From Catajapyx aquilonaris (Eukaryota): a stretch of DNA of 20,000 bases. Where the stretch lies: contig KZ538385.1 in NCBI GenBank assembly GCA_000934665.2, positions 112,155-132,154 of the forward strand. Reading direction: 5' to 3'. Shown here in pieces: positions 2,091 through 20,000 of this stretch (within the stretch, counting starts at the first letter, position 1; each line of letters begins with the position of its first letter). The notes beneath the pieces are model-generated. The model had not been told where the DNA came from, did no database searches, and worked only from the letters and a program-made list of their open reading frames with translations. The translations under genes and the position numbers were made by a program.

Positions 2091-2275
2091 ATGATGTACG
2101 ATGAACACCGTCGTCCACTGCTGCAGGATGTGGAGGGGCAGGGCTGGGGCAGGCTCAGGTCATGTCCCACCGCTCGTCTGGGCACGGTCAAGAGATGGGT
2201 GGCAGCCTCCCTGGTCCTCAGCCTGATGTCCCTCTTCTACCTCACATACTATGTCTCCAACTCGCATTCTTACAG
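2091..2275 (+). CDS. sfl: NDST coding exon 1 (cytoplasmic tail + type II transmembrane anchor)
   Basis: ATG at 2091, [11 protein letters not shown]...[14 protein letters not shown]. Donor AG|GTAAG at 2275/2276, phase 2, matching exon 2. Confidence 0.85.
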
Positions 2276-5200
2276 GTAAGCATCTGAAACTAATCTGGAA
2301 AGCATATCATTACAGTATGATATTCACAATATGTAATTAGAAATTTTCCTTTGATACGACCAGTAACAATTTCATTGTATTATTTAACGTCAGGATGGGA
2401 AAGAGCTTTTTTAATGTGCCTCTTTACATTGACTTGGCTGCTCAATGTTGCGGCGACACAATCACCTTACGCCATTGCCATTGCCGTTAAGCTCACCGTA
2501 AGTTTCCAAGGGAAAAATGGCGGGATAGGTCAAAACTACTGGCCATTATGTGCAGCGTTAAGGCTCAACTGTGCTTCCCGACAAAATTGCATCGTTACTT
2601 TGAAGAATCACATTTTATCATGGTCAGCGGCTGTGTTACAAGAGTTGGCTCAAAATTGCTTGGTGTACTTTAGATTTAGCAGAATAATTTCACTAGATGT
2701 TAAATGTGTCCTAAGTAAGCTAATGAATGCGTAATACTAGTGTAATGCAATTTGCCAATTTTGGTTACCCAGTACATAATTACGAAGAGCGTATGACTCT
2801 TGGAGCACGTTGTGTTTCTCTTTAATGCTTTCTTGCCTCCAGCTCCATTGCCCTTTTAATAACCCCCGGCTGCAGAGGGGTTATTAACAAGAATCGATGG
2901 TTCATATTCTCATTTTATTTGTGTAACCTCTAGTTATGGCGCAGTATATTCTTTTTTTACTCTTCATTTAACGACTGAAACGATAGGAACCTAATAGCAA
3001 ACAAAGGTCAATGAGGCACATGTACAGTAATCGAACAAGGGCCCATGCAGAGCTTTATAATCATCCCGTCAATTGTCTGATTGATCACGAGGCTTAGCCT
3101 TGTAATAACCCCCCCTCGTTTGGATTTGACTTGATTGACTGATGGATTGATTGGCGTCGGTGCAGCTTCATCCGAGGGTCGCGCCCGGAGCCGTCGATAC
3201 GCTGTGCCCTGCTGGGATCCGGGACAAGGAATCCCATCGGGGGCAACCACCACAACACGGAGGCCCAGCTGCGGATAGACCCTCGAGTCCTTGTCTTTGT
3301 GGAGACTGCCTATTCCAGGCTCGGGAGGGAGATTGCTGAGCTGCTTGTGCACAACCGAATGAAGTGAGTCTTTTTGGTTTAACTCATGCATCATATTGGT
3401 TACACTGTTGTCTTTTCTCAAGGTACAAAGTGGAAGTGGCAGGGAAGTCTCTTCCGGTGCTGACCAACCTGGACAAGGGCAAGTTCGGGGTGATAGTGTT
3501 TGAGAACTTCACAAAGTACCTGCACATGGACAAATGGAACCGGGAGCTGCTGGATAAGTACTGTCGGGAGTACCACGTGGGGCTGGTCGGATTCATGCCC
3601 CCCCAGGAGGAGAGCCTGGTGGGGGCCCAGCTCAAAGGGTTTCCAGTGTACGTCCACACAAACCTGAAGCTGAAAGATGCATCGGTCAATCCCGCCTCGC
3701 CTGTTTTGAGGCTCACCAGGGCTGGGGACACTGCGTGGGGCCAGCTGTCTAACGAAGACTGGACCGTCTTCTCGCCCAATCACTCCACATACGAGCCGCT
3801 AGCATGGGCCAGCTTGTTGTCTGACGGAGGTTACGTCGATCCAGAGGCATCAAAGACGCAGCATATCACTGTCCTACAGGTGATTTGGTCTGTCATTACT
3901 GTAGGCCTTCATTACCTGATGAAATGACATAAGACGCTCCCCCATTTCAGTAGATCATATTCGGAGGGGGGGAAAAGTTTTTAGTGCAATAATTTCACAT
4001 CCAAGATGCATGGCGATTTTTTGAGCAATTTTTTTGAGGGGAAAACGCCGTCATACTGTATATGAATATCTGAATGTTACGCAAAGTTAATATGAAGAAT
4101 GGAGCAACCAGCTGTTATGTGGAACCACGTAAACGGTTAGTTCAAAATATTAATGCGGCTAGAACAAACATAATAAATGAGATGGACAGTCGAGCAATGT
4201 GTACAGAGCAAAGCCGCATTTTGCACCCACGTACAACAAAAATGAGCACGCATTTCATTATTATTCATTGATTCGGAGAGGGCAAAATCCACTTTCAGAT
4301 GACAATAGAAATATATTGTTCCTCTGTGTAATATGCGCATTGCCATTGATGGACAATTACGGTTTAAAAAAAAAAAAACTGCGTGTTTCGAAAAAGCATA
4401 TATTGATCATTACAAGCCTTTTTTTGGGGAGTTGATTAGCAGCCTTCAAAGTCTCTCAGATTTTTGTGACTAGTAGAATAACAGTAACGAGGCAGTGAAT
4501 ATAAAGCATTGTGTGATGTATTCATATTATGTAGCCAGCCAGTTTGTCCACTTGTTCTAGTGAACTTTTGTTACCTATGCTGAGGGGAATTTGCTTTCAA
4601 ATTATTGGCTAAACATGTACAGATTCCGAGCTCTGACAATGATGTTCGTTAAAAACGAATCGTTAAAATGCAAATGGTTGACTTGTGACAATGAATGTTG
4701 GCGAATTGTATAGAGTTTGTTGAGTCTACTCTGCGACTAAGTGTTACTTGTTTGTAGAGTAAAAAGCACTTGATGACATGCAATGATGTAATTATTGTTT
4801 TTTTAAGGATCACGGCTTGTACGACGACATCCAGCGCATCCTTTTCGGCAGCGGCCTCCGCTTCTGGCTTCAAAGGCTTCTCTTCCTGGATGCAATGTCT
4901 TACCTCAGTCACGGCCGACTCAGTCTCAGCTTGCAGAGGTTCCTTCTGGTCGATGTGGATGACATTTTTGTTGGAGAAAAAGGAACGAGACTCAAGCGCG
5001 AGGATGTTCAAGTATGATGAGCTGGAACAATACTTTCCGCCATTACCATACGTGCAAGTTTCACTTAAAATTTGGAGCGATCCATTGTCTATTTAAAAGG
5101 TGGAGAGGATTGAAAGTACTTTTATGATCAGAAACTTTGCGGAAAACGAAGCAACTGCTCCTGACTTGTTTGTGACGTATTAACGATTTACTGTTCATGT

Positions 5201-8200
5201 AGTAATTATAACGTTAAAGACACCTGCACAGTGCATATGATACGTCTGGTTTTTTCCTCTCTTGCTCTCCTATAACGTAAATTGTGAGCTCATCTGATTT
5301 GTTATTTGATTATGGAAAGTGGGATGTTTTCATATTGTCAATTCAGAGAGTGGGGGCTTGCAATGTCGATTTCATTAACGTGGAGTAATGCTGTTAGCGT
5401 CACTGCTGGAGTGAGTCTGTGTATTGACATTTGCACTACATGTGGGAATGGCTGCACTTTCCAAAATGGGAAATATATGTGCAGGTAGTTATTTCTTTTA
5501 AATATTACGTACTGGCCATTGCAGGCAATGATAAACGGCCAGGAGCGTCTTCAGAGGTTAGTACCTGGCTTCCGATTCAACCTGGGCTTCTCTGGGAAGT
5601 ACTTCCATCACGGTACGCCAGAAGAAAACGCGGGAGATGACATGCTGTTGGGTAAGCTGACTCCGACACTTTGCCTCTCACTTGTGCGCATATTTTAATC
5701 CCTTTTTTAAATCTTCCTAAATACAGTAGGAGAAACAAATTTTTTTTTCTTCTTTTTTGGGTCCAGGTTGTGGGGAGAATATAAAATTTAATGCATTTGA
5801 TGGTTGATCCCGATAATAATTTGTGTTTGCAGCACATGCACAAGATTTCTGGTGGTTCCCACACATGTTTAGACACACCCAACCCCACCTGTACAATGTG
5901 ACCCAACTCGTTCAAGGCATGACGTGGAATTTTAATTTCGCAAAGGTAGTTTGGTGTGCGAATATTTTCTGCAACACCACTTGGATTTTTTTATTTTGAA
6001 GAGATTACTCTTTGTAGTTTGCACTCCCCTTGTTTTTGCGTTTATGTTTTTTTTTTCTGTCCACTTTGGTTTTGGGATACGGGATGGGGGCACTCTAACC
6101 ACACTCACAACGTAGCGTTTGACTTGCTTCCACATGAAAGTACCCTCTTCTTTCAGCACTTGCATTCACTTTTTTTTTTAAATATTTATATATTTGGTAC
6201 GCACATGTGTTGAAGTGAGAGAGAAAACTTTTTTTTTCTTCTTCGATGGCTCAATTCCCATTTGTAGAACACGCAGATGAGTTTATGTGGTTCGGTCACA
6301 TGTGGAATCATCAACAGCCTCACCTGTATGAAAACGATACCCAACTCCAGCTAGACATGAACCTCAATAAGAATTTCGCAAAGGTAAGCTTTCCCGAAAG
6401 GCACCTTTTTGAGACGTATTAGTCGAACCTTGGGGCTTATGTTCCGTTAAGTTTGTTATGGGGCCACCGTTTGCATGTTTGTGTCGGTAAATCAGGAATA
6501 TTTTTAAATGGGAAACGTTACAGTGCTGAAAGAAGATTTATTTTTTACGTAGCTAGTGGCATGGTGCACGGTGTCTTGATTAACTAATATTAACGGATTA
6601 ATAATCTGCATGTCGATATGTCGTCACCCTGCAGACAATTATGTAGCTTAGCCAAGTGCACTGGACATGTTTGAGGCTCTATAGGTTGCCATGATTAATG
6701 GCAGTGCTCTGCGAAATTAGGGGGGGCTTAATTGAGATTTGTTTGCTGTGGATGGGTAAGCCCTTGACACATTCGAAACAAAACATTACGCAAGTTCAAG
6801 TTTACGTGATTATTGTACAGTGTTTATCTGCGAGTTAAAACACAGTGTAATGTCCATCAGCGAATAACGTTACTTTTGTGGATTAGCGTCATGTCATGTT
6901 AAACTGATGATCTTCTCTGATGCTAATAGAGCCTGAAATGTGTACTTTGTAACACACCTAGTGCAATCGACCTGAAAGCCATTACTGCATAGAGATGAAT
7001 GTCAAATTAACATTCATTAGAGGACTTGTAGCGTTCAGGTCGAAGCTGCAGGATTCACATTGCCGCCACCCTGATAAATAATGCAAACTTCCCTTCCTTC
7101 CGGGCCGCATCTACAAAAGGAACATGGGATTCCAGTAGACTCGGGCTACTCGGTGGCCCCTCACCACTCTGGGGTGTACCCTGTGCACGAGCCCTTGTAC
7201 GAGGCTTGGCGCAAAGTGTGGGGGGTTAGGGCCACCAGCACGGAGGAGTATCCGCACCTGAGACCAGCCAGGCTCAGACGAGGGTTCGTTCATCGTACAG
7301 TCATGGTGCTTCCGAGACAGACTTGCGGGTTGTTCACGCACACCATCTTCATAGAGAGGTATCCAGGTGGTAGGCAGAAGCTGGACGAGAGCATCCAAGG
7401 CGGAGAGCTTTTTCAGACCGTCGTGTACAATCCGGTAAGTTCTACAGCCTTTCGCGGCTTATTGCAAATACTGATTTTCGCTTTACCTGCAGATCAATGT
7501 CTTCATGACCCACATGTCAAACTACGGGAATGATCGGCTGGCCATGTACACGTTTGAGTCCGTGGTTAAGTTCCTTCAGTGCTGGACCAATCTGCAGTTG
7601 CAGACCTTACCGCCAGTGCAGCTTGGAGAGAAGTACTTCCAGATGTATCCAGAGGAAGTTGATCCTGTATGGGGGGTGAGAAATGCTTCTCTTACGCTAT
7701 TGTTTTCTGGGCTATACCATTATGGTTACGTCTGTTTCATACTGTTTCATATTTCTGAATGTGACCTGTTTCAACTATGTAACATCTAAATCTGATCCGA
7801 TTCAGAATCCATGCGACGACCAGCGTCACACACGCATCTGGTCTCCCAACAAGACGTGTGACCAGCTTCCGCACTTCCTGGTGATCGGCCCGCAGAAGAC
7901 TGGAACCACTGCTCTGTACACTTTCCTGGCCATGCATCCTGCAGTGTCTTCCAACTTTCCCTCCCAGGAGACGTTCGAGGAGGTGCAGTTCTTCAATGGG
8001 AAGAACTACTACAGAGGGCTGGACTGGTACATGCGATTCTTCCCTGTTCCCAAGAACTCAACCGGTGGGCATGTTCTGTTTGAGAAGAGCGCAACATACT
8101 TTGAGAGTGAGCTTGTTCCGAGAAGAGCACATGCACTCTTACCAAAGGTATGTGCGGTTGAATTTAACTAGTTGTATGCATTACGTGCAGGGCTAATACT

Positions 8201-9552
8201 TCGTGGTTTACAGGTGAAGGTGGTGACCATCCTGATATCACCAGCGAAGAGGGCGTACTCGTGGTACCAGCACATGAGGGCGCATAATGACCCAGTGGCA
8301 CAGAACTATACTTTTGCGCAGGTCATCATGGCTGGAGAAGCCGCACCTAAGCAACTTAAAGACCTTCGGAATAGGTGTGCAATTTTTTCGGAGCGTGCAA
8401 GACCATTTTGTTCTTCACCGTTGTGTGCACCGTTGCAACCTTCTCATTTCAGGTGCTTGAATCCCGGTAAATATGCTCAGCACCTAGAGCGATGGCTAAC
8501 GTACTACTCCCCTCAACAACTGTATATAATCGATGGGGAGGAAGTTCGAAACAACCCAGTGGACGTCATGAACAAGTTGCAGCAGTTCCTGAAGCTGAAG
8601 CCCTTCTTCGACTACTCGACCAAGCTTAGGTACGGGACACTTGGCTTGCGAATTCTAGGGCATGTTATTCTAACGAGATGGTTAATTCGCAGGTATGACC
8701 CGAGCAAAGGGTTCTTCTGCCAAGTGATCAACTCGGACCATACCAAATGCCTGGGGAGGAGTAAAGGGAGACAGTATCCGGCCATGGATGAAAGGGCATA
8801 CAAGTACCTGCAGGTACGATCTCGGCTCGCATGAGTGTAACGCGTACTGAGAGAATTTTCGTTGATAAACTTTGCTGCGAAAGTGACAGAAATTGATGAG
8901 TTTATTGTTCGTTGTTGGTACACCATCCATAAGTAAAATTAATCAAAGTTAATTAATGATCTTGAAGTATTTTTGATGATTTCAAATAACAATGAATAAC
9001 AATGAATAACAATTATCAACAAGTAACAACTATCAACAATGAATAAATATTATCAACAAATCACAAATTATCAACAATAAAAAGCTTATCGACAAAAAAA
9101 CAACTTATCGTCAAATAATTGTCAACAATGAATAACAATAATTATGAAATAGATAACTATCAATAATTAATAACAATAATTATGAAATAGATAACTATCA
9201 ATAATTAATGACATCTATTGTAAAGAATAATTAGCTAATAACTATTGTAAAGAATAATTAGCTGACATCTACTGTAAAGAATAATTAGCTAATAACTATT
9301 GTAAATTTTAATAAATTACTTATCAAGATAATTGTAAATAACATTTATTACTAATTTATAACTGATATTAATGATATTAATAACTACTACTTATTATTAA
9401 TGATAGTAATAATTTTTAAACATGTTTGTCTTGTACTTTCCCAGATGTACTACATGCCTCACAACACAGCGTTGGTGAAGCTGCTGAAGCGTTTGGACTA
9501 CCCGATACCCCAGTGGCTTAAAGAGGACTTGAGCGATAGGATAGGGATGTGA
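2091..9552 (+). CDS. sfl: Bifunctional heparan sulfate N-deacetylase/N-sulfotransferase (NDST, sulfateless). Spliced CDS join(2091-2275,3166-3363,3423-3879,4808-5011,5525-5651,[5833-5945 OR 6268-6383],7120-7434,7493-7675,7806-8147,8214-8374,8453-8629,8693-8813,9445-9552), 896/897 aa
   Basis: Manual splicing at GT-AG sites gives one open frame with consistent phases. NDST hallmarks present: N-terminal TM anchor ([20 protein letters not shown]), [91 protein letters not shown]-binding [11 protein letters not shown] and [16 protein letters not shown]. Family assignment is from recalled NDST/Sfl sequences. Confidence 0.96.
3166..3363 (+). CDS. sfl: NDST exon 2 (stem, ...[33 protein letters not shown])
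   Basis: Acceptor tgcag|C at 3165/3166, donor AA|GTGAGT at 3363/3364. This frame is not shown in the ORF track. Confidence 0.9.
3423..3879 (+). CDS. sfl: NDST exon 3 ([19 protein letters not shown]...ITVLQ)
   Basis: Lies within ORF 3364-3927. Acceptor ctcaag|G, donor CAG|GTGAT. Confidence 0.93.
4808..5011 (+). CDS. sfl: NDST exon 4 ([14 protein letters not shown]...[22 protein letters not shown]), carries the deacetylase DD motif
   Basis: Acceptor ttttaag|GAT, donor CAA|GTATGA. Confidence 0.93.
5525..5651 (+). CDS. sfl: NDST exon 5 ([42 protein letters not shown])
   Basis: Acceptor ttgcag|GCA, donor G|GTAAGC, phase 1. Confidence 0.93.
5833..5945 (+). CDS. sfl: NDST alternative exon 6A ([38 protein letters not shown])
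   Basis: 113 nt. Acceptor tgtttgcag|CA, donor AAG|GTAGTT, phase 1 to 0, no stops. Paralogous to exon 6B. Confidence 0.85.
6268..6383 (+). CDS. sfl: NDST alternative exon 6B ([39 protein letters not shown])
   Basis: 116 nt. Acceptor tttgtag|AA, donor AAG|GTAAGC, phase 1 to 0, no stops. Confidence 0.9.
7120..7434 (+). CDS. sfl: NDST exon 7 ([23 protein letters not shown]...QTVVYNP)
   Basis: Lies within ORF 7081-7533. Acceptor aaag|GAA, donor CCG|GTAAGT. Confidence 0.93.
7493..7675 (+). CDS. sfl: NDST exon 8 ([16 protein letters not shown]...DPVWG)
   Basis: Acceptor cctgcag|ATC, donor GGG|GTGAGA. Confidence 0.93.
7806..8147 (+). CDS. sfl: NDST exon 9 (start of sulfotransferase domain, [11 protein letters not shown])
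   Basis: Acceptor ttcag|AAT, donor AAG|GTATGT. Confidence 0.95.
8214..8374 (+). CDS. sfl: NDST exon 10 ([20 protein letters not shown]...)
   Basis: Acceptor ttacag|GTG, donor AG|GTGTGC. Confidence 0.92.
8453..8629 (+). CDS. sfl: NDST exon 11 ([15 protein letters not shown]...DYSTKLR)
   Basis: Acceptor tttcag|G, donor AG|GTACGG. Confidence 0.92.
8693..8813 (+). CDS. sfl: NDST exon 12 (YDPSKGFFC...[11 protein letters not shown]...YLQ)
   Basis: Acceptor tcgcag|G, donor CAG|GTACGA. Confidence 0.92.
8940..9420. repeat. AT-rich low-complexity block in the last NDST intron with nested tandem repeats
   Basis: AACAATGAAT-like repeats from ~8987. A 38-bp unit x2 (9131-9206). A 27-bp unit x3.5 alternating two variants (9210-9305). 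Confidence 0.85.
9445..9552 (+). CDS. sfl: NDST last coding exon ([35 protein letters not shown])
   Basis: Acceptor tttcccag|ATG, TGA at 9550-9552. Typical NDST C-terminus (P.WL.E.L). Confidence 0.92.
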   Translation: MYYMPHNTALVKLLKRLDYPIPQWLKEDLSDRIGM

Positions 9553-11962: not shown

Positions 11963-12448
11963 TAGTGCCAATCCATCATTTCACTGAAACTTGAAATTTA
12001 TGTTAATCTCACCTTATCACGTCGCTCTTAGGATATGATTAAATAAAATATTTAAATAATTGCGAAATAATAATTATCCCAGAATATGGATAATTTATGA
12101 AACTATCTTAATTAAATAATTGCGAAATAATGATTATCTGAGAATATGATTAATTAATGAAACAATCTTAAATATAATTGCGAAATAGTAATTACCTTAG
12201 AATATGAATAATTTATGGGTTTGCGAAATAATAATTTAAGAATACGATGAATTAATGAAACGATCTTAAATAATTATGAATTATTGTCATTATTGTGCAG
12301 ATCCATCATTTCACTGAAATTCAAAATTGATTTTAATAATCCCATCGTAATTAAATATTTACATAATTGCGGAATAAGAATTATCTCAGAATATGATTAA
12401 TTAACGAAACAACCTTAATTAAATAATGGCGTAATAATATTATATTAC

Positions 12449-12700
12449 AATATTATTAATTAAGTACAGCCCATCGGGTACGGTAAATAAATAAAAAATT
12501 AAGTACAGCCCATCGGGGTACGGTTAATAAAAAATAAATAAAATATGATTAAGTACAGCCCATTGGGATACGGTAAATAAATAAATGAAATATTATTAAT
12601 TAAGTGCGGCCCATCGGGATACGGTAAATAAATAAATATTATTAATTAAGTACAGCCCATCGGGGTGCGGTAAATAAATATATAAAATATTATTAATTAA
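12449..12700 (+). repeat. Five-copy tandem array of TTAAGTACAGCCCATCGGGRTACGG + (TAAA)n
   Basis: Cores at 12460, 12499, 12549, 12600 and 12646, period 39-51 bp. Confidence 0.9.

Positions 12701-12906: not shown

Positions 12907-12970
<64 letters not shown>
12907..12970. repeat. (ATT)n microsatellite, about 21 units
   Basis: Directly visible. Explains the poly-I and poly-N ORFs on the minus strand. Confidence 0.97.
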
Positions 12971-12971
<1 letters not shown>

Positions 12972-13299: not shown

Positions 13300-13883
13300 T
13301 GGAAGGACGGCAGGTGATGTAACACGTAGGCTTAAATAAGTCGGGGCGGGAGGGTGGGTGGGTGGGGTTGTGGGGGGGGAAAAAAAGGAACAAAATGAAA
13401 ATTGCGCTAATTGCAATTACTGCACATTAAGGTTCATGTTAAGGTGCGTTGCCCCCCGGAACAGTACCTCAAGTGTATTGGGAGCTCCACGGCTTAATAC
13501 ACCGGACTAGGCCTGAGAATTTTTTTTTGCCCCCACAGGTACAATGGACACACAACATGCAGGGCATTGTTCTAATCGCTTTTAGTAGGACACGGAACCA
13601 TATGCTAGCATAAGAGGAACACAGGCCCCTATTCACATTTGTCGAGATTTTTCCCCCCAGTTTCATTCGGGACTAGGCCTGAGATTTTTGTTGTTTTTTT
13701 TTTGCATTAGAATCGCAGGGCGCAATGTGCAGCGCAACGTACAGCGCATGTTCATGTCCTCCTTACATGGAACGTTGTTTGCATAAAAAGGAACAAAACG
13801 GGTCAATGACCTTTTATGTTCAATTTCATGGCACATATTTGGCTCTTAAAGGTGCTGGCGTAATTATTGAAGCGGCTTATTGC

Positions 13884-13948
13884 ATGATGGGGGCCAAGCG
13901 TTGTGGTGTTGCAATAATTGCAACACCACAACGCTTGGCCCCCATCAT
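13884..13948. repeat. Perfect palindrome, 32-bp arms with 1-nt spacer
   Basis: ATGATGGGGGCCAAGCGTTGTGGTGTTGCAAT-A-ATTGCAACACCACAACGCTTGGCCCCCATCAT. Confidence 0.97.
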
Positions 13949-13951
13949 AGC

Positions 13952-14116
13952 AATCGTTACCATGGGAACGGTCACACATACGCTGCTTACTTGAAGCAGT
14001 ACTTTTTATCAAAATTGTGCAGTCACAATAATAATTATTGTGACCGCACAATTTTGATAAAAGTACTGCTTCAAGTAAGCAGTGTATGTAGTGTGACCGT
14101 TCTCATGGTAATGATT
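13952..14116. repeat. Near-perfect palindrome, ~81-bp arms with 1-nt spacer
   Basis: 13952-14032 versus 14034-14116, with four substitutions and two small indels. Confidence 0.95.
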
Positions 14117-17011: not shown

Positions 17012-19287
17012 GTACGTCGCATAATGGTGTGTTATCATTATTACTTCTTAGTTGTAGTCCTCATTTTAATATTTACTAGTGTAAGCTACAAGCTTGCTTT
17101 GGTTTTTTTTTAAAATTCAAAACAAATTTAGCAATTTTGACATGAGCTGCTGTGTATTCATATTTTGCCTTCTCATTGCCTGCTCTCCTATGCTTGTGCG
17201 GCATGTCCAGGATCTGGAGCCTCAAAGCAGGACCTGGAGGATGCTTTCTCCTACTACGGACCACTGAGGAATGTGTGGGTAGCCCGCAACCCACCTGGAT
17301 TTGCGTTTGTGGAGTTTGAGGATGCTCGAGATGCTGAAGATGCTGTGCGAGGTCTCGATGGAAGGTCAGTCCCTTTGCTGATGACCCGATTGCACTTCCG
17401 GTGCAAAGAAACTAACTTTTTTGCCCATGTCATTCAGGACTGTGTGCGGACGTCGCGTGCGTGTGGAGCTGTCTACTGGGAAGAGCAAGTCCCAGTTCCG
17501 CGGGGCTCCCCCACGCTGGGGCCGTCCGTATCATCCAGAGGACCGCTGCTATGACTGCGGCGAGCGAGGCCACTACGCCAGGGACTGCTCACGGTACCGC
17601 CGGTACCGTATTTGTGGAGAAATCCACTCCTATTTTGCAACATGTGGGCTTGAAATGTGGCGGTTCAGTACTGCCGTATGCGAACTGCAAGTCAGGAAAA
17701 TGATAATTCGAGGCTCTGTTATGGCGACGGAGTATTTGATAGCAGATGTTGACGGCATCGTTTTGTTGCATTTAACATTCAACGCTGAGGGGGTTGGGAC
17801 GAAGTTGGGACGTACCCCGACTCCATGCATGTTTACAGACAAGTTAATGGGATGGGGGGGAAAAAAAATTACTAATTTGAAAAGGGGGAGCAGAGGGCAA
17901 AGATTGATTGATGATTTTGTTCCTGACATTCTTATAGGTGTAACGGCTGAAACTGAGAGTTACACAGCTATGAGAGCTACTACTTCTACTTCTACTACTA
18001 CGGCATTCTCCTTCTACATAGACACAGACCATAAGCCAGTCACTATTTTGTACACGAATGGTCTTCTCGCCTCGCCAGTTACCTGCGAGAAAAGTTCCGC
18101 ATCGAGAGAGGGTACCCTCCCAATAAGAGGCGCGCGCCATGTTGTCTCCAAGATTACATGACGTGCAGCCATTGAGAGAAAGAATGTTAGAAGCAGTCAC
18201 GTCTGTTTTCAACCAGTTAATTATGCTACGGGTGTACAGCTACTGCTCAACAGTTAATTATGCTACGGGTGTACAGCTACTGCTCAACAGTTAATTATGC
18301 TACGGGTGTACAGCTACTGCTCAACTGCCCTTCTACAGAGTACTACTAGAGCTGCAGTCTCGTATTGAATTTTGAATGAGTCGTCGGCCCACTTGTGAGT
18401 CGGCTGGCATATGGTAGGACCACATGCAACTGTCCACATTTCCCTTTCAAATATATCACCAGGTTTTCCTGTGTAACTTACAGAAAATGATTGCGTTGCA
18501 AAGACCTGCCTTCAAATCGCCAAATTTGCCTGTAATTACTGGCATGTTAGTAACGCGGCCTTGGATTTAACCTCATCCTTAGCGGCTGGAGTTAGAGTGA
18601 GGCCGGGTGCCTGCGATTTGCAAGGCAGCGTATGCAAAAGAATTATTTTCTTTTTGGCACGGAGAGGTTAGCCTGTAGTCAGCCCACATTCACTTTCCCC
18701 CCTAGCCGTATGGATACGGTAGTTTAATTCCTGTCTCCCCGCCAGCCCGGAATTTGGCGCTGGCGGTGCTACAGAATTCGCTATACCTCCATCTTGTTCA
18801 TGGTGCGCTCAAGTGGTAAGATTGCGGAGGCTACCTACCACCCGAGTTGCACCTTGATCAAGCTGGCGGCCTAGCGAACGATGGGACGCAGACATTAGGC
18901 TACCGTATTAGAAGAGTGTCAAGGGGCTGCCTTTAGTCAAGGCATGCAAATTAATGCTGCTCTGCTTTGGCCCCCTTTCCCATCTCGTGACCCTGAAGCC
19001 ATTCTCGCAGCCGTTCCCGGAGCCGTAGCCGCAGCCGCTCCCGTGGACGCCGCCGTTCCCGCAGCTACAGCCGCAGCCGTTCCAAGTCCCGCAGCCGTAG
19101 CCGCAGCCGCTCTCCATCCAAGTCCCGGAGCCGCAGCCGCTCCAGGTCTCGCCAGGGGAGCCGTGCAACAGCTGGGGCTGGCGCCAGCGGATCAGGGGGG
19201 ATAGGACCAGGGACCAGTGGTGGAGGCGGCGGAGGCAGTGGAGGGGCCCAGGCTAACCGCAGCCGCTCCAGGTCCCCTGCTCGCTGA
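16954..19287 (+). CDS. SRSF7: Serine/arginine-rich splicing factor 7 (9G8/x16)-like. Spliced CDS join(16954-17011,17211-17364,17438-17602,18999-19287), ~221 aa
   Basis: [20 protein letters not shown] (RNP2), [17 protein letters not shown] (RNP1), CCHC knuckle [14 protein letters not shown] and an RS-repeat exon ending at TGA 19285-19287. The exon 3 donor (17593 or 17602) and exon 4 acceptor (18998 or 19010) are ambiguous, but all are phase 2. Confidence 0.92.
17211..17364 (+). CDS. SRSF7: SR protein exon 2 (RRM core)
   Basis: Acceptor tccag|GA, donor AG|GTCAGT. Confidence 0.95.
17438..17602 (+). CDS. SRSF7: SR protein exon 3 (RRM end + zinc knuckle)
   Basis: Acceptor ttcag|G. Weak tandem donors CG|GTACCG at 17593 and 17602. 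Confidence 0.85.
18214..18324. repeat. Perfect 37-bp tandem repeat x3
   Basis: CAGTTAATTATGCTACGGGTGTACAGCTACTGCTCAA at 18214, 18251 and 18288. Confidence 0.97.
18999..19287 (+). CDS. SRSF7: SR protein RS-domain exon
   Basis: [54 protein letters not shown]...[11 protein letters not shown], in a frame missed by the ORF track. Confidence 0.9.
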
Positions 19288-20000
19288 AGTGTGTGGGATC
19301 AGGGTTCATTTGGAATCGGGTTAACAAACCAGGGGTTAATAAAACCAGGTTATGGGAAGGATAAACTACTACCACCGTGTTTTTTTCTTCTCGCAATAAA
19401 TACCCTCATCCTTTTCCACCTCAACCCGCAACCTTGTTACAGGAGGAGGAGGAGTCCCACGAACCCAAGTGTTGCAACAACCAAGTAATTTCGTTGTAAG
19501 GTGGAGCCTGCTAATTGCGCATAATGACCTGCTGCTCTTACTTGCCCTGATCTGAAAATATCGGGACACCCCCAAAAAATGGAGTGGTGGGGTTATACAC
19601 AGGATGTGATAAAAAGTTTCCATTAAGATTATCTGGACTTTAGAATGGATAATTATGAATAGTAACAATTGAGCTAGGAGGAAACCAAATTTGAAGTTCA
19701 TTTGACAGTTAACAACTGAAATAAATACGATTATACCTTGGACAGTGAATTTCTGTGGGGTCTGGTAAAAATTGCTGCCACTATGTTAATTTCTTACTTA
19801 GCGGGATGTAAATGTTGATAATGAACCTGAGGGGCCGCACAAACCCAAAAACAGTTATGACATTAATTACAAAAAATCTACCACATAATTAAAAAATATT
19901 TGTCGCAAGTGGATTTTTTCAGAAATTGATACACTTGGCTGTACCACATTTAACGGTGTTATTTATTAATAAATTAAAATGTGATAGTATTGTTTATCTA

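What the first reader, a model, noticed from the sequence alone, without database searches (positions are those of the whole stretch)
5833..6383. Tandem mutually exclusive exons swap the catalytic His-x3-His segment of the NDST N-deacetylase domain
Seen: two homologous exons between exons 5 and 7, of 113 and 116 nt. Both are phase 1 to 0, stop-free, with canonical AG/GT, and both end AATTTCGCAAAG|GT. 6A = [38 protein letters not shown] and 6B = [39 protein letters not shown]. Including both (229 nt) or neither shifts the frame. Despite heavy divergence, both keep WF.HM..H.QPHLY and an N-x-T sequon, which suggests purifying selection on both. Established: the NDST deacetylase domain is polysaccharide-deacetylase (CE4/NodB)-like and uses an Asp-His-His metal triad (here the DD of exon 4 plus this H-x-x-x-H). 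Vertebrates diversify NDST through four paralogues, whereas invertebrates typically have one gene. Inference: this animal may make two NDST isoenzymes with different deacetylase active sites from one gene, tuning heparan-sulfate sulfation by splicing. I do not recall this being described for sulfateless, but I cannot verify that.
Basis: partly seen in the sequence, partly recalled or inferred. Interest (0 to 1): 0.9.

Follow-up and report, generated by a model that had tools for sequence, protein, structure and literature searches.

The report
Twin alternative exons in NDST deacetylase core
An arthropod-type heparan-sulfate enzyme gene (NDST) carries two diverged copies of the exon encoding its two metal-binding histidines; both copies look protein-coding and only one fits the reading frame at a time, so the animal probably makes two enzyme versions by splicing, though no RNA data could be checked.

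Summary
Exons 6A (5833-5945, 113 nt) and 6B (6268-6383, 116 nt) lie between NDST exon 5 (ends 5651) and exon 7 (starts 7120). Both have AG/GT sites, phase 1 to 0 and no stops. Both align to human NDST1 residues 381-416, which hold the metal ligands H389 and H393.

6B is the canonical arthropod form and 6A is a divergent copy. 6A keeps 16 of the 17 columns that are invariant in 108 arthropod orthologues, while synonymous sites and flanking introns have largely randomised. In 200,000 unconstrained simulations, none kept that many. So 6A has been selected as coding sequence.

Including both exons or neither gives an early stop codon, so use must be mutually exclusive to give a full-length protein.

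A perfect 15-bp inverted repeat brackets 6B (1 of 1000 resamples reached 15). It is a candidate looping-out switch.

One of 54 metagenomic NDST loci (L039) has an analogous 116/113-nt pair. None of the 80 insect and Daphnia database proteins checked shows a second exon-6 type.

No transcript evidence could be obtained, and any enzymatic difference is inferred. I rate it a new member of a known kind (exon-duplication mutually exclusive splicing), of moderate interest.

The parts
4805..5008 (+). NDST exon 4 (approximate limits from the tblastn match). It encodes ...[11 protein letters not shown]..., with the DD equivalent to human D319 (base) and D320 (metal ligand).
   Evidence: tblastn with P0007. 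PDB alignment to NDST1 268-336. Residue roles from PMC10864358.
5525..5651 (+). NDST exon 5. It ends in phase 1 (...TTG G|gtaagc), and its last G completes the first codon of either exon 6 copy.
5833..5945 (+). Exon 6A, 113 nt, the divergent copy: [38 protein letters not shown]. It has one codon fewer than 6B, a weaker acceptor tract and the donor AAG|gtagtt.
6146..6160 (+). Left arm of a perfect 15-nt inverted repeat (TCTTCTTTCAGCACT), 108 nt upstream of the 6B acceptor.
6268..6383 (+). Exon 6B, 116 nt, the canonical arthropod-type copy: [39 protein letters not shown]. It has a stronger pyrimidine tract and the donor AAG|gtaagc.
6522..6536 (+). Right arm of the 15-nt inverted repeat (AGTGCTGAAAGAAGA), 139 nt downstream of the 6B donor. 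Paired with 6146-6160 it would loop out exon 6B.
7120..7434 (+). NDST exon 7 (phase 0), [24 protein letters not shown]...VVYNP, aligned to human NDST1 418-522.

Best explanation
**What it is.** A tandem duplication of NDST exon 6 created a pair of mutually exclusive exons. Exon 6 encodes the H-x3-H metal-binding motif, the QPH motif, the N-glycosylation sequon and the following helix of the CE4-like N-deacetylase domain.

**How it would work.**
- 6B is the ancestral, default exon. It has the canonical arthropod sequence and the stronger splice signals.
- 6A is a fast-evolved but still constrained alternative.
- Exclusivity is enforced at least by the reading frame. 113 + 116 = 229 nt included, or 0 nt, shifts the frame and gives an early stop, presumably cleared by nonsense-mediated decay.
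- The intron between the copies is 322 nt, so steric hindrance does not apply.
- The choice may be biased by a 15-bp intronic stem that loops out 6B and brings the 6A donor towards exon 7.

**Expected products.** Two NDST proteins that are identical except for 16 of 39 positions around the catalytic metal site: HMFRH against HMWNH, P against G before the first His, one residue deleted before the sequon, and six changes on the following helix.

**Shown:** the anatomy, the homology, the frame logic, selection on 6A and the existence of the stem.

**Inferred:** actual splicing of 6A, mutual exclusivity in vivo, the role of the stem and any difference in enzymatic behaviour.
For: **Anatomy and frame.**

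**Both copies match the same enzyme segment.** Both match NDST1 381-416 and Pfam PF12062 positions 71-107 above the gathering score. H389/H393, D320, D319 and H529 are essential in human NDST1 (PMC10864358, passages read). The N401 glycosite corresponds to the sequon in both exons.

**6B is the canonical type.**
- 119 of the 120 listed arthropod NDSTs hold the region. The 120th is a 278-aa fragment without it.
- All 119 have the long W-containing form.
- 6B matches 17 of 17 invariant columns.

**6A is constrained as coding sequence.**
- It keeps 16 of 17 invariant columns but matches the consensus at only 4 of 22 variable columns (Fisher 2e-6).
- Only 1 of its 16 differences from 6B falls in an invariant column (hypergeometric 8e-5).
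- Zero of 200,000 unconstrained simulations with 38 substitutions kept 16 or more invariant columns. The probability of 23 or more identical residues was 1.2e-4.
- Pairwise dN is 0.36, dS 1.04 and the ratio 0.35.
- 7 of the 12 degenerate codons with identical residues in codons 1-23 differ synonymously, so the conserved core is not kept by recent gene conversion.
- The flanking introns no longer align, except for one T-tract.
- The only indel is 3 nt, in frame.

**The stem.** The 15-nt perfect inverted repeat brackets 6B. One of 1000 first-order Markov resamples reached 15 nt. It forms in both the minimum-energy and centroid folds, z -2.07.

**A parallel case.** In L039, 116-nt and 113-nt exon-6 copies sit between exon 5 (ending in G, phase 1) and exon 7, both with AG/GT sites.
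Against:
- **No 6A-type sequence found elsewhere.** The whole-library search with 6A gave 107 hits, with the highest listed identity 62-69%, and none is a close orthologue. Two word-index searches returned no candidates. Conservation of 6A across species is therefore untested.
- **6A has weaker splice signals.** Its pyrimidine fraction is 0.53-0.54 against 0.65-0.78 for 6B, and its donor is gtagtt against gtaagc.
- **6A changes conserved positions.** It changes one column invariant in arthropods (W to F at the human W391 position) and the 97%-conserved L33 (to W).
- **No second type in sampled relatives.** None of the 80 region-holding members (of 89 listed) of 10 insect and Daphnia clusters, NCBI X1/X2/X3 isoforms included, has a second exon-6 type.
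- **Pairwise dN/dS cannot separate the branches.** The ratio of 0.35 rests on only 19 synonymous sites.
- **The stem is untested.** It has no comparative support, and L039 has no equivalent.
Confidence: 0.65

Rival explanations
1. 6A is a duplicated exon that was once used but is now silent, or is only rarely spliced as noise (a young pseudo-exon). Only 6B contributes to the protein.
For: 6A has weaker acceptor and donor signals. It carries the W-to-F change at a column invariant in 108 arthropod sequences, and L33W. No 6A-type protein is present in the public collections searched.
Against: The frame is open, the AG/GT sites are intact and the only indel is in frame. It retains 16 of 17 invariant columns despite about 33% nucleotide divergence and randomised flanks. 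Any loss of function would have to be very recent. The W-to-F/Y and L33 changes also occur in apparently functional NDSTs of other animals.
Confidence: 0.17
2. 6A acts as a regulatory 'poison' exon. It is co-included with 6B, or included alone under some conditions, mainly to trigger a frameshift and nonsense-mediated decay and so lower NDST output, not to make a second enzyme.
For: Co-inclusion gives a stop 84 nt into 6B. Frame-incompatible pairs are a known route to decay (PMC5740500, passages read).
Against: A poison exon does not need catalytic residues. The residue-specific conservation of 6A points to translation in the NDST frame (H, H, QPH, N-x-T and the helix core residues L, M, N, F).
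Confidence: 0.08
3. The inverted repeat around 6B promotes back-splicing of exon 6B into a small circular RNA, or is a fortuitous or repeat-derived hairpin. It is not a switch for linear exon choice.
For: Flanking intronic complementarity is the usual driver of exon circularisation (general knowledge, recalled). The Drosophila orthologue sfl is known to give a functional circRNA from another exon (PMC7318944, search listing and abstract only).
Against: A 116-nt single-exon circle is very small. Circularising 6B would still leave a linear RNA that needs 6A to stay in frame, so this overlaps with the main reading. There is no comparative evidence either way.
Confidence: 0.07
4. The similarity is an assembly artefact (falsely duplicated haplotype) or chance.
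For: None found.
Against: The copies are only 65% identical in nucleotides (76 of 117), with unalignable flanks, unlike collapsed or duplicated haplotypes. Each copy alone passes the Pfam gathering score.
Confidence: 0.01

Closest known systems
Human NDST1 (cryo-EM structures 8CCY, 8CD0, 8CHS; Mycroft-West et al. 2024, PMC10864358)
   Same: The domain and motifs are the same. Exon 4 DD corresponds to D319/D320. The exon 6 H-x3-H corresponds to H389/H393. The sequon corresponds to N401. Exon 7 matches residues 418-524 with E 2e-53.
   Different: Human NDST1 has one version of this segment (FPHMWSH). The window has two alternative versions in one gene (FPHMFRH and FGHMWNH).
Vertebrate NDST1-4 paralogues
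   Same: Both give several NDST enzymes with different properties from one ancestral gene. That the paralogues differ in their deacetylase/sulfotransferase balance is recalled knowledge, not checked here.
   Different: In vertebrates the diversity comes from whole-gene duplicates. Here only a 38/39-residue cassette in the deacetylase core would differ, and the N-terminal and sulfotransferase domains are shared.
Tandem-duplicated exon substitutions (mutually exclusive exons), e.g. ketohexokinase 3A/3C, cacophony and arthropod Mhc (PMC9741552, PMC5740500, PMC2257972)
   Same: The exons are adjacent and homologous, with the same phase and lengths differing by a multiple of 3. Catalytic or binding residues are kept in both copies while neighbouring residues diverge. 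In KHK the catalytic Arg is kept in both isoforms (PMC9741552, passages read). Frame incompatibility is a recognised enforcing mechanism (PMC5740500, passages read).
   Different: Those events have transcript and often proteomic support and are conserved across species. This one has neither yet. NDST is not mentioned in the main text of either paper.
RNA-pairing control of exclusive exons (Dscam1 docking/selector pairing; looping-out stems, recalled from FGFR2 and 14-3-3)
   Same: An intronic base-paired stem is positioned to include or exclude one member of an exon cluster.
   Different: Here there is a single stem bracketing one exon. There is no docking site with several selectors, no conservation data and no experimental test.
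Drosophila sulfateless (sfl) and other insect or Daphnia NDST genes
   Same: They are orthologous single-copy-type NDSTs, and 6B is 22-31 of 39 identical to them.
   Different: All 119 listed representatives that hold the region, and all 80 region-holding members of 10 clusters, carry one exon-6 type only.

Membership tests
[quoted passage not shown] | Sequence match to the HSNSD-CE profile and to solved NDST1 | tested here: met
   6A scores 35.4 bits and 6B 50.9 bits against a cutoff of 25. The whole gene maps exon by exon onto an insect NDST.
[quoted passage not shown] | His-His-Asp metal triad plus Asp base (D319, D320, H389, H393) | tested here: met
   The DD in exon 4 aligns to 319/320. 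H-x3-H is present in both 6A and 6B at the 389/393 positions. Roles come from PMC10864358. H529 was not examined.
Mutually exclusive exon pair from tandem exon duplication | Neighbouring exons in one intron interval with significant sequence homology | tested here: met
   60.5% identity over 38 aa, E 8e-11. 23 of 39 aligned columns are identical.
Mutually exclusive exon pair from tandem exon duplication | Same phase, lengths differing by a multiple of 3, GT-AG sites, no in-frame stop | tested here: met
   113 and 116 nt, phase 1 to 0, cag|...|gt and tag|...|gt.
Mutually exclusive exon pair from tandem exon duplication | A mechanism that forbids joint inclusion or joint skipping | tested here: met
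   In silico, both-in gives a stop 84 nt into 6B and both-out gives a stop 107 nt into exon 7. Whether such RNAs are degraded was not tested.
Mutually exclusive exon pair from tandem exon duplication | Transcripts that contain one or the other exon, never both | not testable with these tools
Mutually exclusive exon pair from tandem exon duplication | Both copies under purifying selection, or conserved in related species | tested here: inconclusive
   Within-genome tests support constraint on 6A. No genome of a close relative was available, and no 6A-type orthologue was found. An analogous pair exists in the unrelated locus L039.
RNA-structure-controlled exon choice | Intronic complementary elements beyond chance, placed to loop out or select an exon | tested here: met
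   15-nt perfect inverted repeat at 6146-6160 / 6522-6536. One of 1000 resamples reached 15 nt. It is present in the minimum-energy and centroid folds.
RNA-structure-controlled exon choice | Covariation or conservation of the pairing, and an effect on splicing | not testable with these tools
   No related genomes were available and no experiment was possible.

The most novel reading that the evidence does not exclude
Exon 6 of NDST, the metal-binding cassette of the deacetylase, may be a recurrent hotspot for exon duplication in invertebrates. It has been duplicated here, in the animal behind L039 (116 + 113 nt), and in the nematode-like animal behind P0200 (two 38-residue copies about 57 nt apart). 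Each duplication would give a splice-switchable pair of NDST isozymes, substituting for the four vertebrate paralogues. In this arthropod the switch would be set by a 15-bp intronic stem that loops out the default exon.
Probability: 0.3. Interest if true: 0.7.

Novelty: new member of a known kind. Interest (0 to 1): 0.55.

Why it matters
NDST performs the first, pattern-setting modification of heparan sulfate. That modification in turn shapes Wnt, Hedgehog, BMP and FGF signalling. Vertebrates vary this step with four genes, while invertebrates are thought to have one enzyme.

A splice-selected swap of the segment that holds the two catalytic histidines would have two consequences:
- A single-gene animal would gain two deacetylases, giving a tissue-specific handle on heparan-sulfate structure.
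- It would provide a natural pair of active-site variants, differing at 16 positions, for structure-function work on the recently solved deacetylase domain.

It would also add an enzyme active site to a class of mutually exclusive exons that is dominated by channels and structural proteins.

Tried and rejected
**Run search.** The look-up of sequencing runs listed one run, X1. Its kind is unknown, it is kept as contigs, and it holds 0.43 of the sampled words.

**Read laying.** I did not resend.

**Word-index protein searches.**
- With the 37-aa 6A peptide the query was too short.
- With 41 aa in 'longer' mode and the 59-aa ORF in 'near' mode there was no candidate.
- The index seems insensitive for this query. 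Proteins sharing FWWFPHM with 6A exist in the other library but were not returned.

**Metagenome scans.** The 6A query was first too short. With the 59-aa ORF, 132 pattern matches were found and none was confirmed.

**Other resources.** No whole genome is held for this window. Four look-ups of earlier findings returned nothing.

**Docking-site idea.** Both exon 3' ends (AATTTCGCAAAG) pair with 6707-6719 at 12 of 13 positions. An inverted repeat of 10 nt or more appears in about 70% of resamples, so I do not count this.

**Orthology of the 113-nt types.** I compared window 6A with L039 copy 2 by eye, not with a tool. 6A is about 18 of 38-39 identical to either L039 copy, and the order of the two types is reversed. 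Independent duplications are the simpler reading, but 38 residues cannot decide it.

**L039 stem.** A search for an equivalent stem in L039 found none.

**Taxonomic placement.** In the quick tree (the careful search did not finish) the window sits in an unresolved basal polytomy with Daphnia and the insect orders. The best identity is 78%, to a mayfly. I therefore say only 'arthropod-type'.

**RNA genes.** Rfam and tRNA scans of the window found nothing.
Full report
**1. Observation**

The window holds an NDST gene on the + strand, running from about 2100 to 9550 (ORF list; exon-by-exon tblastn with an insect NDST). The sequence shows the following:
- Exon 5 ends at 5651 (...TTGG|gtaagc, phase 1).
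- Exon 6A runs 5833-5945 (113 nt, cag|...AAG|gtagtt).
- Exon 6B runs 6268-6383 (116 nt, tag|...AAG|gtaagc).
- Exon 7 runs 7120-7434.

Both exons end AATTTCGCAAAG|GT.

The frame behaves as claimed:
- 5-6A-7 and 5-6B-7 are open.
- Joint inclusion puts a stop 84 nt into 6B.
- Joint skipping puts a stop 107 nt into exon 7.

The two copies are homologous far beyond chance:
- 6B finds 6A by tblastn at 60.5% identity over 38 aa, E 8e-11.
- Each exon on its own passes the gathering score of Pfam PF12062 (HSNSD-CE) on the same profile positions 71-107. The scores are 35.4 and 50.9 bits against a cutoff of 25.

**2. What the segment is**

- Exon 7 matches human NDST1 418-524 (E 2e-53).
- 6A and 6B both match NDST1 381/382-416.
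- The DD in exon 4 aligns to D319/D320.

I read passages of the NDST1 cryo-EM paper (PMC10864358). They state that:
- D320, H389 and H393 coordinate the catalytic metal.
- D319 is the likely base and H529 the likely acid.
- Alanine mutants of all five are inactive.
- N401 is a predicted glycosite with visible density.

In the alignment, H389/H393 are the H-x3-H of both exons and N401 is the N of both sequons.

**3. Which copy is ancestral**

A search with the exon 3 peptide found 253 relatives. The best 120 listed are all arthropod NDSTs at up to 81% identity. The species itself and its close relatives are therefore not in that collection.

A quick tree leaves the window in an unresolved basal polytomy with Daphnia and the insect orders. 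The best identity is 78% (the careful search did not finish).

Of the 120 listed proteins, 119 hold the region. The other is a 278-aa fragment. All 119 have the long form WF[SGC]HMW.H.QPHLY.N.
- 6B matches all 17 columns that are invariant in the 108 distinct sequences, and is 22-31 of 39 identical to them.
- 6A is 17-23 of 39 identical.

So 6B is the canonical exon and 6A is the divergent copy.

**4. Is 6A a dead copy?**

The evidence says no, or not for long.
- 6A differs from 6B at 16 of 39 aligned columns, including one deleted codon. Only one of these differences lies in an invariant column, W to F at the human W391 position (hypergeometric 8e-5).
- It keeps 16 of 17 invariant columns but agrees with the consensus at only 4 of 22 variable ones (Fisher 2e-6).
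- Nucleotide identity is 76 of 117. NG86 gives dN 0.36, dS 1.04 and a ratio of 0.35, on only 19 synonymous sites.
- In the conserved core, 7 of the 12 degenerate codons with identical residues differ synonymously. The residue identity there is therefore not a product of recent gene conversion.
- The flanking introns no longer align, apart from a T-tract at 5730-5754 / 6219-6243.
- I applied 38 unconstrained substitutions to 6B in 200,000 simulations. None kept 16 or more invariant columns, and 24% stayed stop-free.
- The W-to-F/Y and L33 changes are seen in NDSTs of other animals.

A sequence that had drifted as far as its flanks would not look like this. 6A has been translated in the NDST frame for most of its history.

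**5. How exclusivity and choice would work**

The 322-nt intron between the copies rules out steric hindrance. Both exons have ordinary GT-AG sites. The frame is therefore the demonstrable enforcing mechanism. It is one of the recognised ones (PMC5740500, passages read).

6B has the better signals:
- Its pyrimidine fraction is 0.65-0.78 against 0.53-0.54 for 6A.
- Its donor is gtaagc against gtagtt.

6B is therefore the likely default exon.

A perfect 15-nt inverted repeat brackets 6B, at 6146-6160 and 6522-6536.
- Only 1 of 1000 first-order Markov resamples of the 5652-7119 region reached 15 nt.
- The stem forms in both the minimum-energy and centroid structures, with z -2.07 against 100 shuffles.

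I read it as a candidate looping-out element that hides 6B and favours 5-6A-7. This is inference. It has no comparative support, and it could instead drive circularisation of 6B.

**6. Elsewhere**

An exon 7 query brought in 80 metagenome loci. Of these, 54 hold at least one exon-6-like site at E 1e-3 or better. The same settings detect paralogous copies at 50-60% identity.

Only L039 has two full copies:
- 1553-1668 is 116 nt.
- 2295-2407 is 113 nt.
- Both have AG/GT sites and are in phase 1, after an exon 5 that ends in G. Exon 7 lies 7.6 kb downstream.

L016 shows one exon split in two.

A whole-library HMMER search with 6A gave 107 hits at E 1e-3 or better, and none is a close 6A orthologue. 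The top hit, P0200, is an unnamed read-through ORF. It holds two 38-residue exon-6-like stretches 58 residues apart and resembles a mermithid nematode sequence.

Ten insect and Daphnia clusters had 89 listed members, of which 80 hold the region. These include NCBI isoforms X1-X3 of seven species, and they show one exon-6 type only.

Duplication of this exon is thus rare but recurrent. It is not a general arthropod feature.

**7. Literature**

Full-text searches gave nothing on such an event. They combined these terms:
- NDST with 'mutually exclusive exons'
- sulfateless with 'mutually exclusive'
- 'tandem exon duplication' with 'heparan sulfate'
- N-deacetylase and N-sulfotransferase with splicing
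- sulfateless with 'alternative splicing'

NDST does not occur in the main text of two catalogues of human exon-duplication splicing. Their supplements were not read.

**8. Verdict**

Two coding-competent, frame-exclusive versions of the catalytic cassette exist, and the odd one is under selection.
- Splicing of 6A, tissue regulation and any enzymatic difference are not shown, because the only route to reads was lost.
- It is a new member of a well-known kind of system, in an enzyme where it would be biologically meaningful.

Noticed in passing
window 17140-19290 (+): A second gene whose ORF pieces read as an SR splicing factor. They show an RRM-like stretch (...[25 protein letters not shown]), a CCHC knuckle ([14 protein letters not shown]) and a long RS/SR repeat. 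The resemblance to SRSF7/9G8 is from memory, not from a search.
   Followed up: no
L039 1553-1668 and 2295-2407: An unnamed metagenome contig carries an analogous NDST exon-6 pair of 116 and 113 nt (order reversed relative to the window). Both copies have AG/GT sites, are in phase 1 and score 44.7 and 42.5 bits on PF12062. As in the window, the 113-nt copy starts with Ala and lacks the residue before the sequon.
   Followed up: partly
protein P0200 (unnamed Logan contig), residues about 164-201 and 222-259: A read-through ORF contains two exon-6-like stretches of 38 residues about 19 residues apart, each followed by V (a GT donor). The first resembles the Romanomermis culicivorax sequence P0212. 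This may be a third, nematode-like case of the duplication. The DNA could not be fetched.
   Followed up: partly
window 5901-5945 versus 6339-6383: Synonymous divergence is uneven. In codons 1-23, 7 of the 12 degenerate codons with identical residues differ. In codons 25-39, 0 of 8 differ (Fisher 0.015), although six residues in that half are replaced, several by 2-3 nucleotide changes. This suggests nucleotide-level constraint or old partial gene conversion at the 3' end, with selected replacements.
   Followed up: partly
window 5933-5945, 6372-6383 and 6707-6719: The identical 3' ends of both exons are complementary (12 of 13) to one site in the intron downstream of 6B. This looks like a docking/selector arrangement, but it is within chance expectation.
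   Followed up: partly
window 8983-9305, 12052-12700, 12907-12971: An AT-rich stretch (GC 0.23-0.34 between 9 and 13 kb) contains several minisatellites and a perfect (ATT)x21.7 microsatellite.
   Followed up: no
window 18209-18325: A 37-nt unit is repeated 3.1 times at 98% identity, inside the SR-protein gene region.
   Followed up: no
window about 13850-14100: ORFs on opposite strands give nearly the same peptide (...GAKRCGVAIIATPQRLAPI...), which implies an inverted duplication or palindromic repeat element.
   Followed up: no
proteins P0205, P0243, P0259: The short, 38-residue form of the exon (one residue fewer before the sequon) is the only exon-6 form seen in each of these unnamed animal sequences (P0243, P0259 and the read-through ORF P0205). 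The length of this loop therefore varies among animal NDSTs.
   Followed up: no
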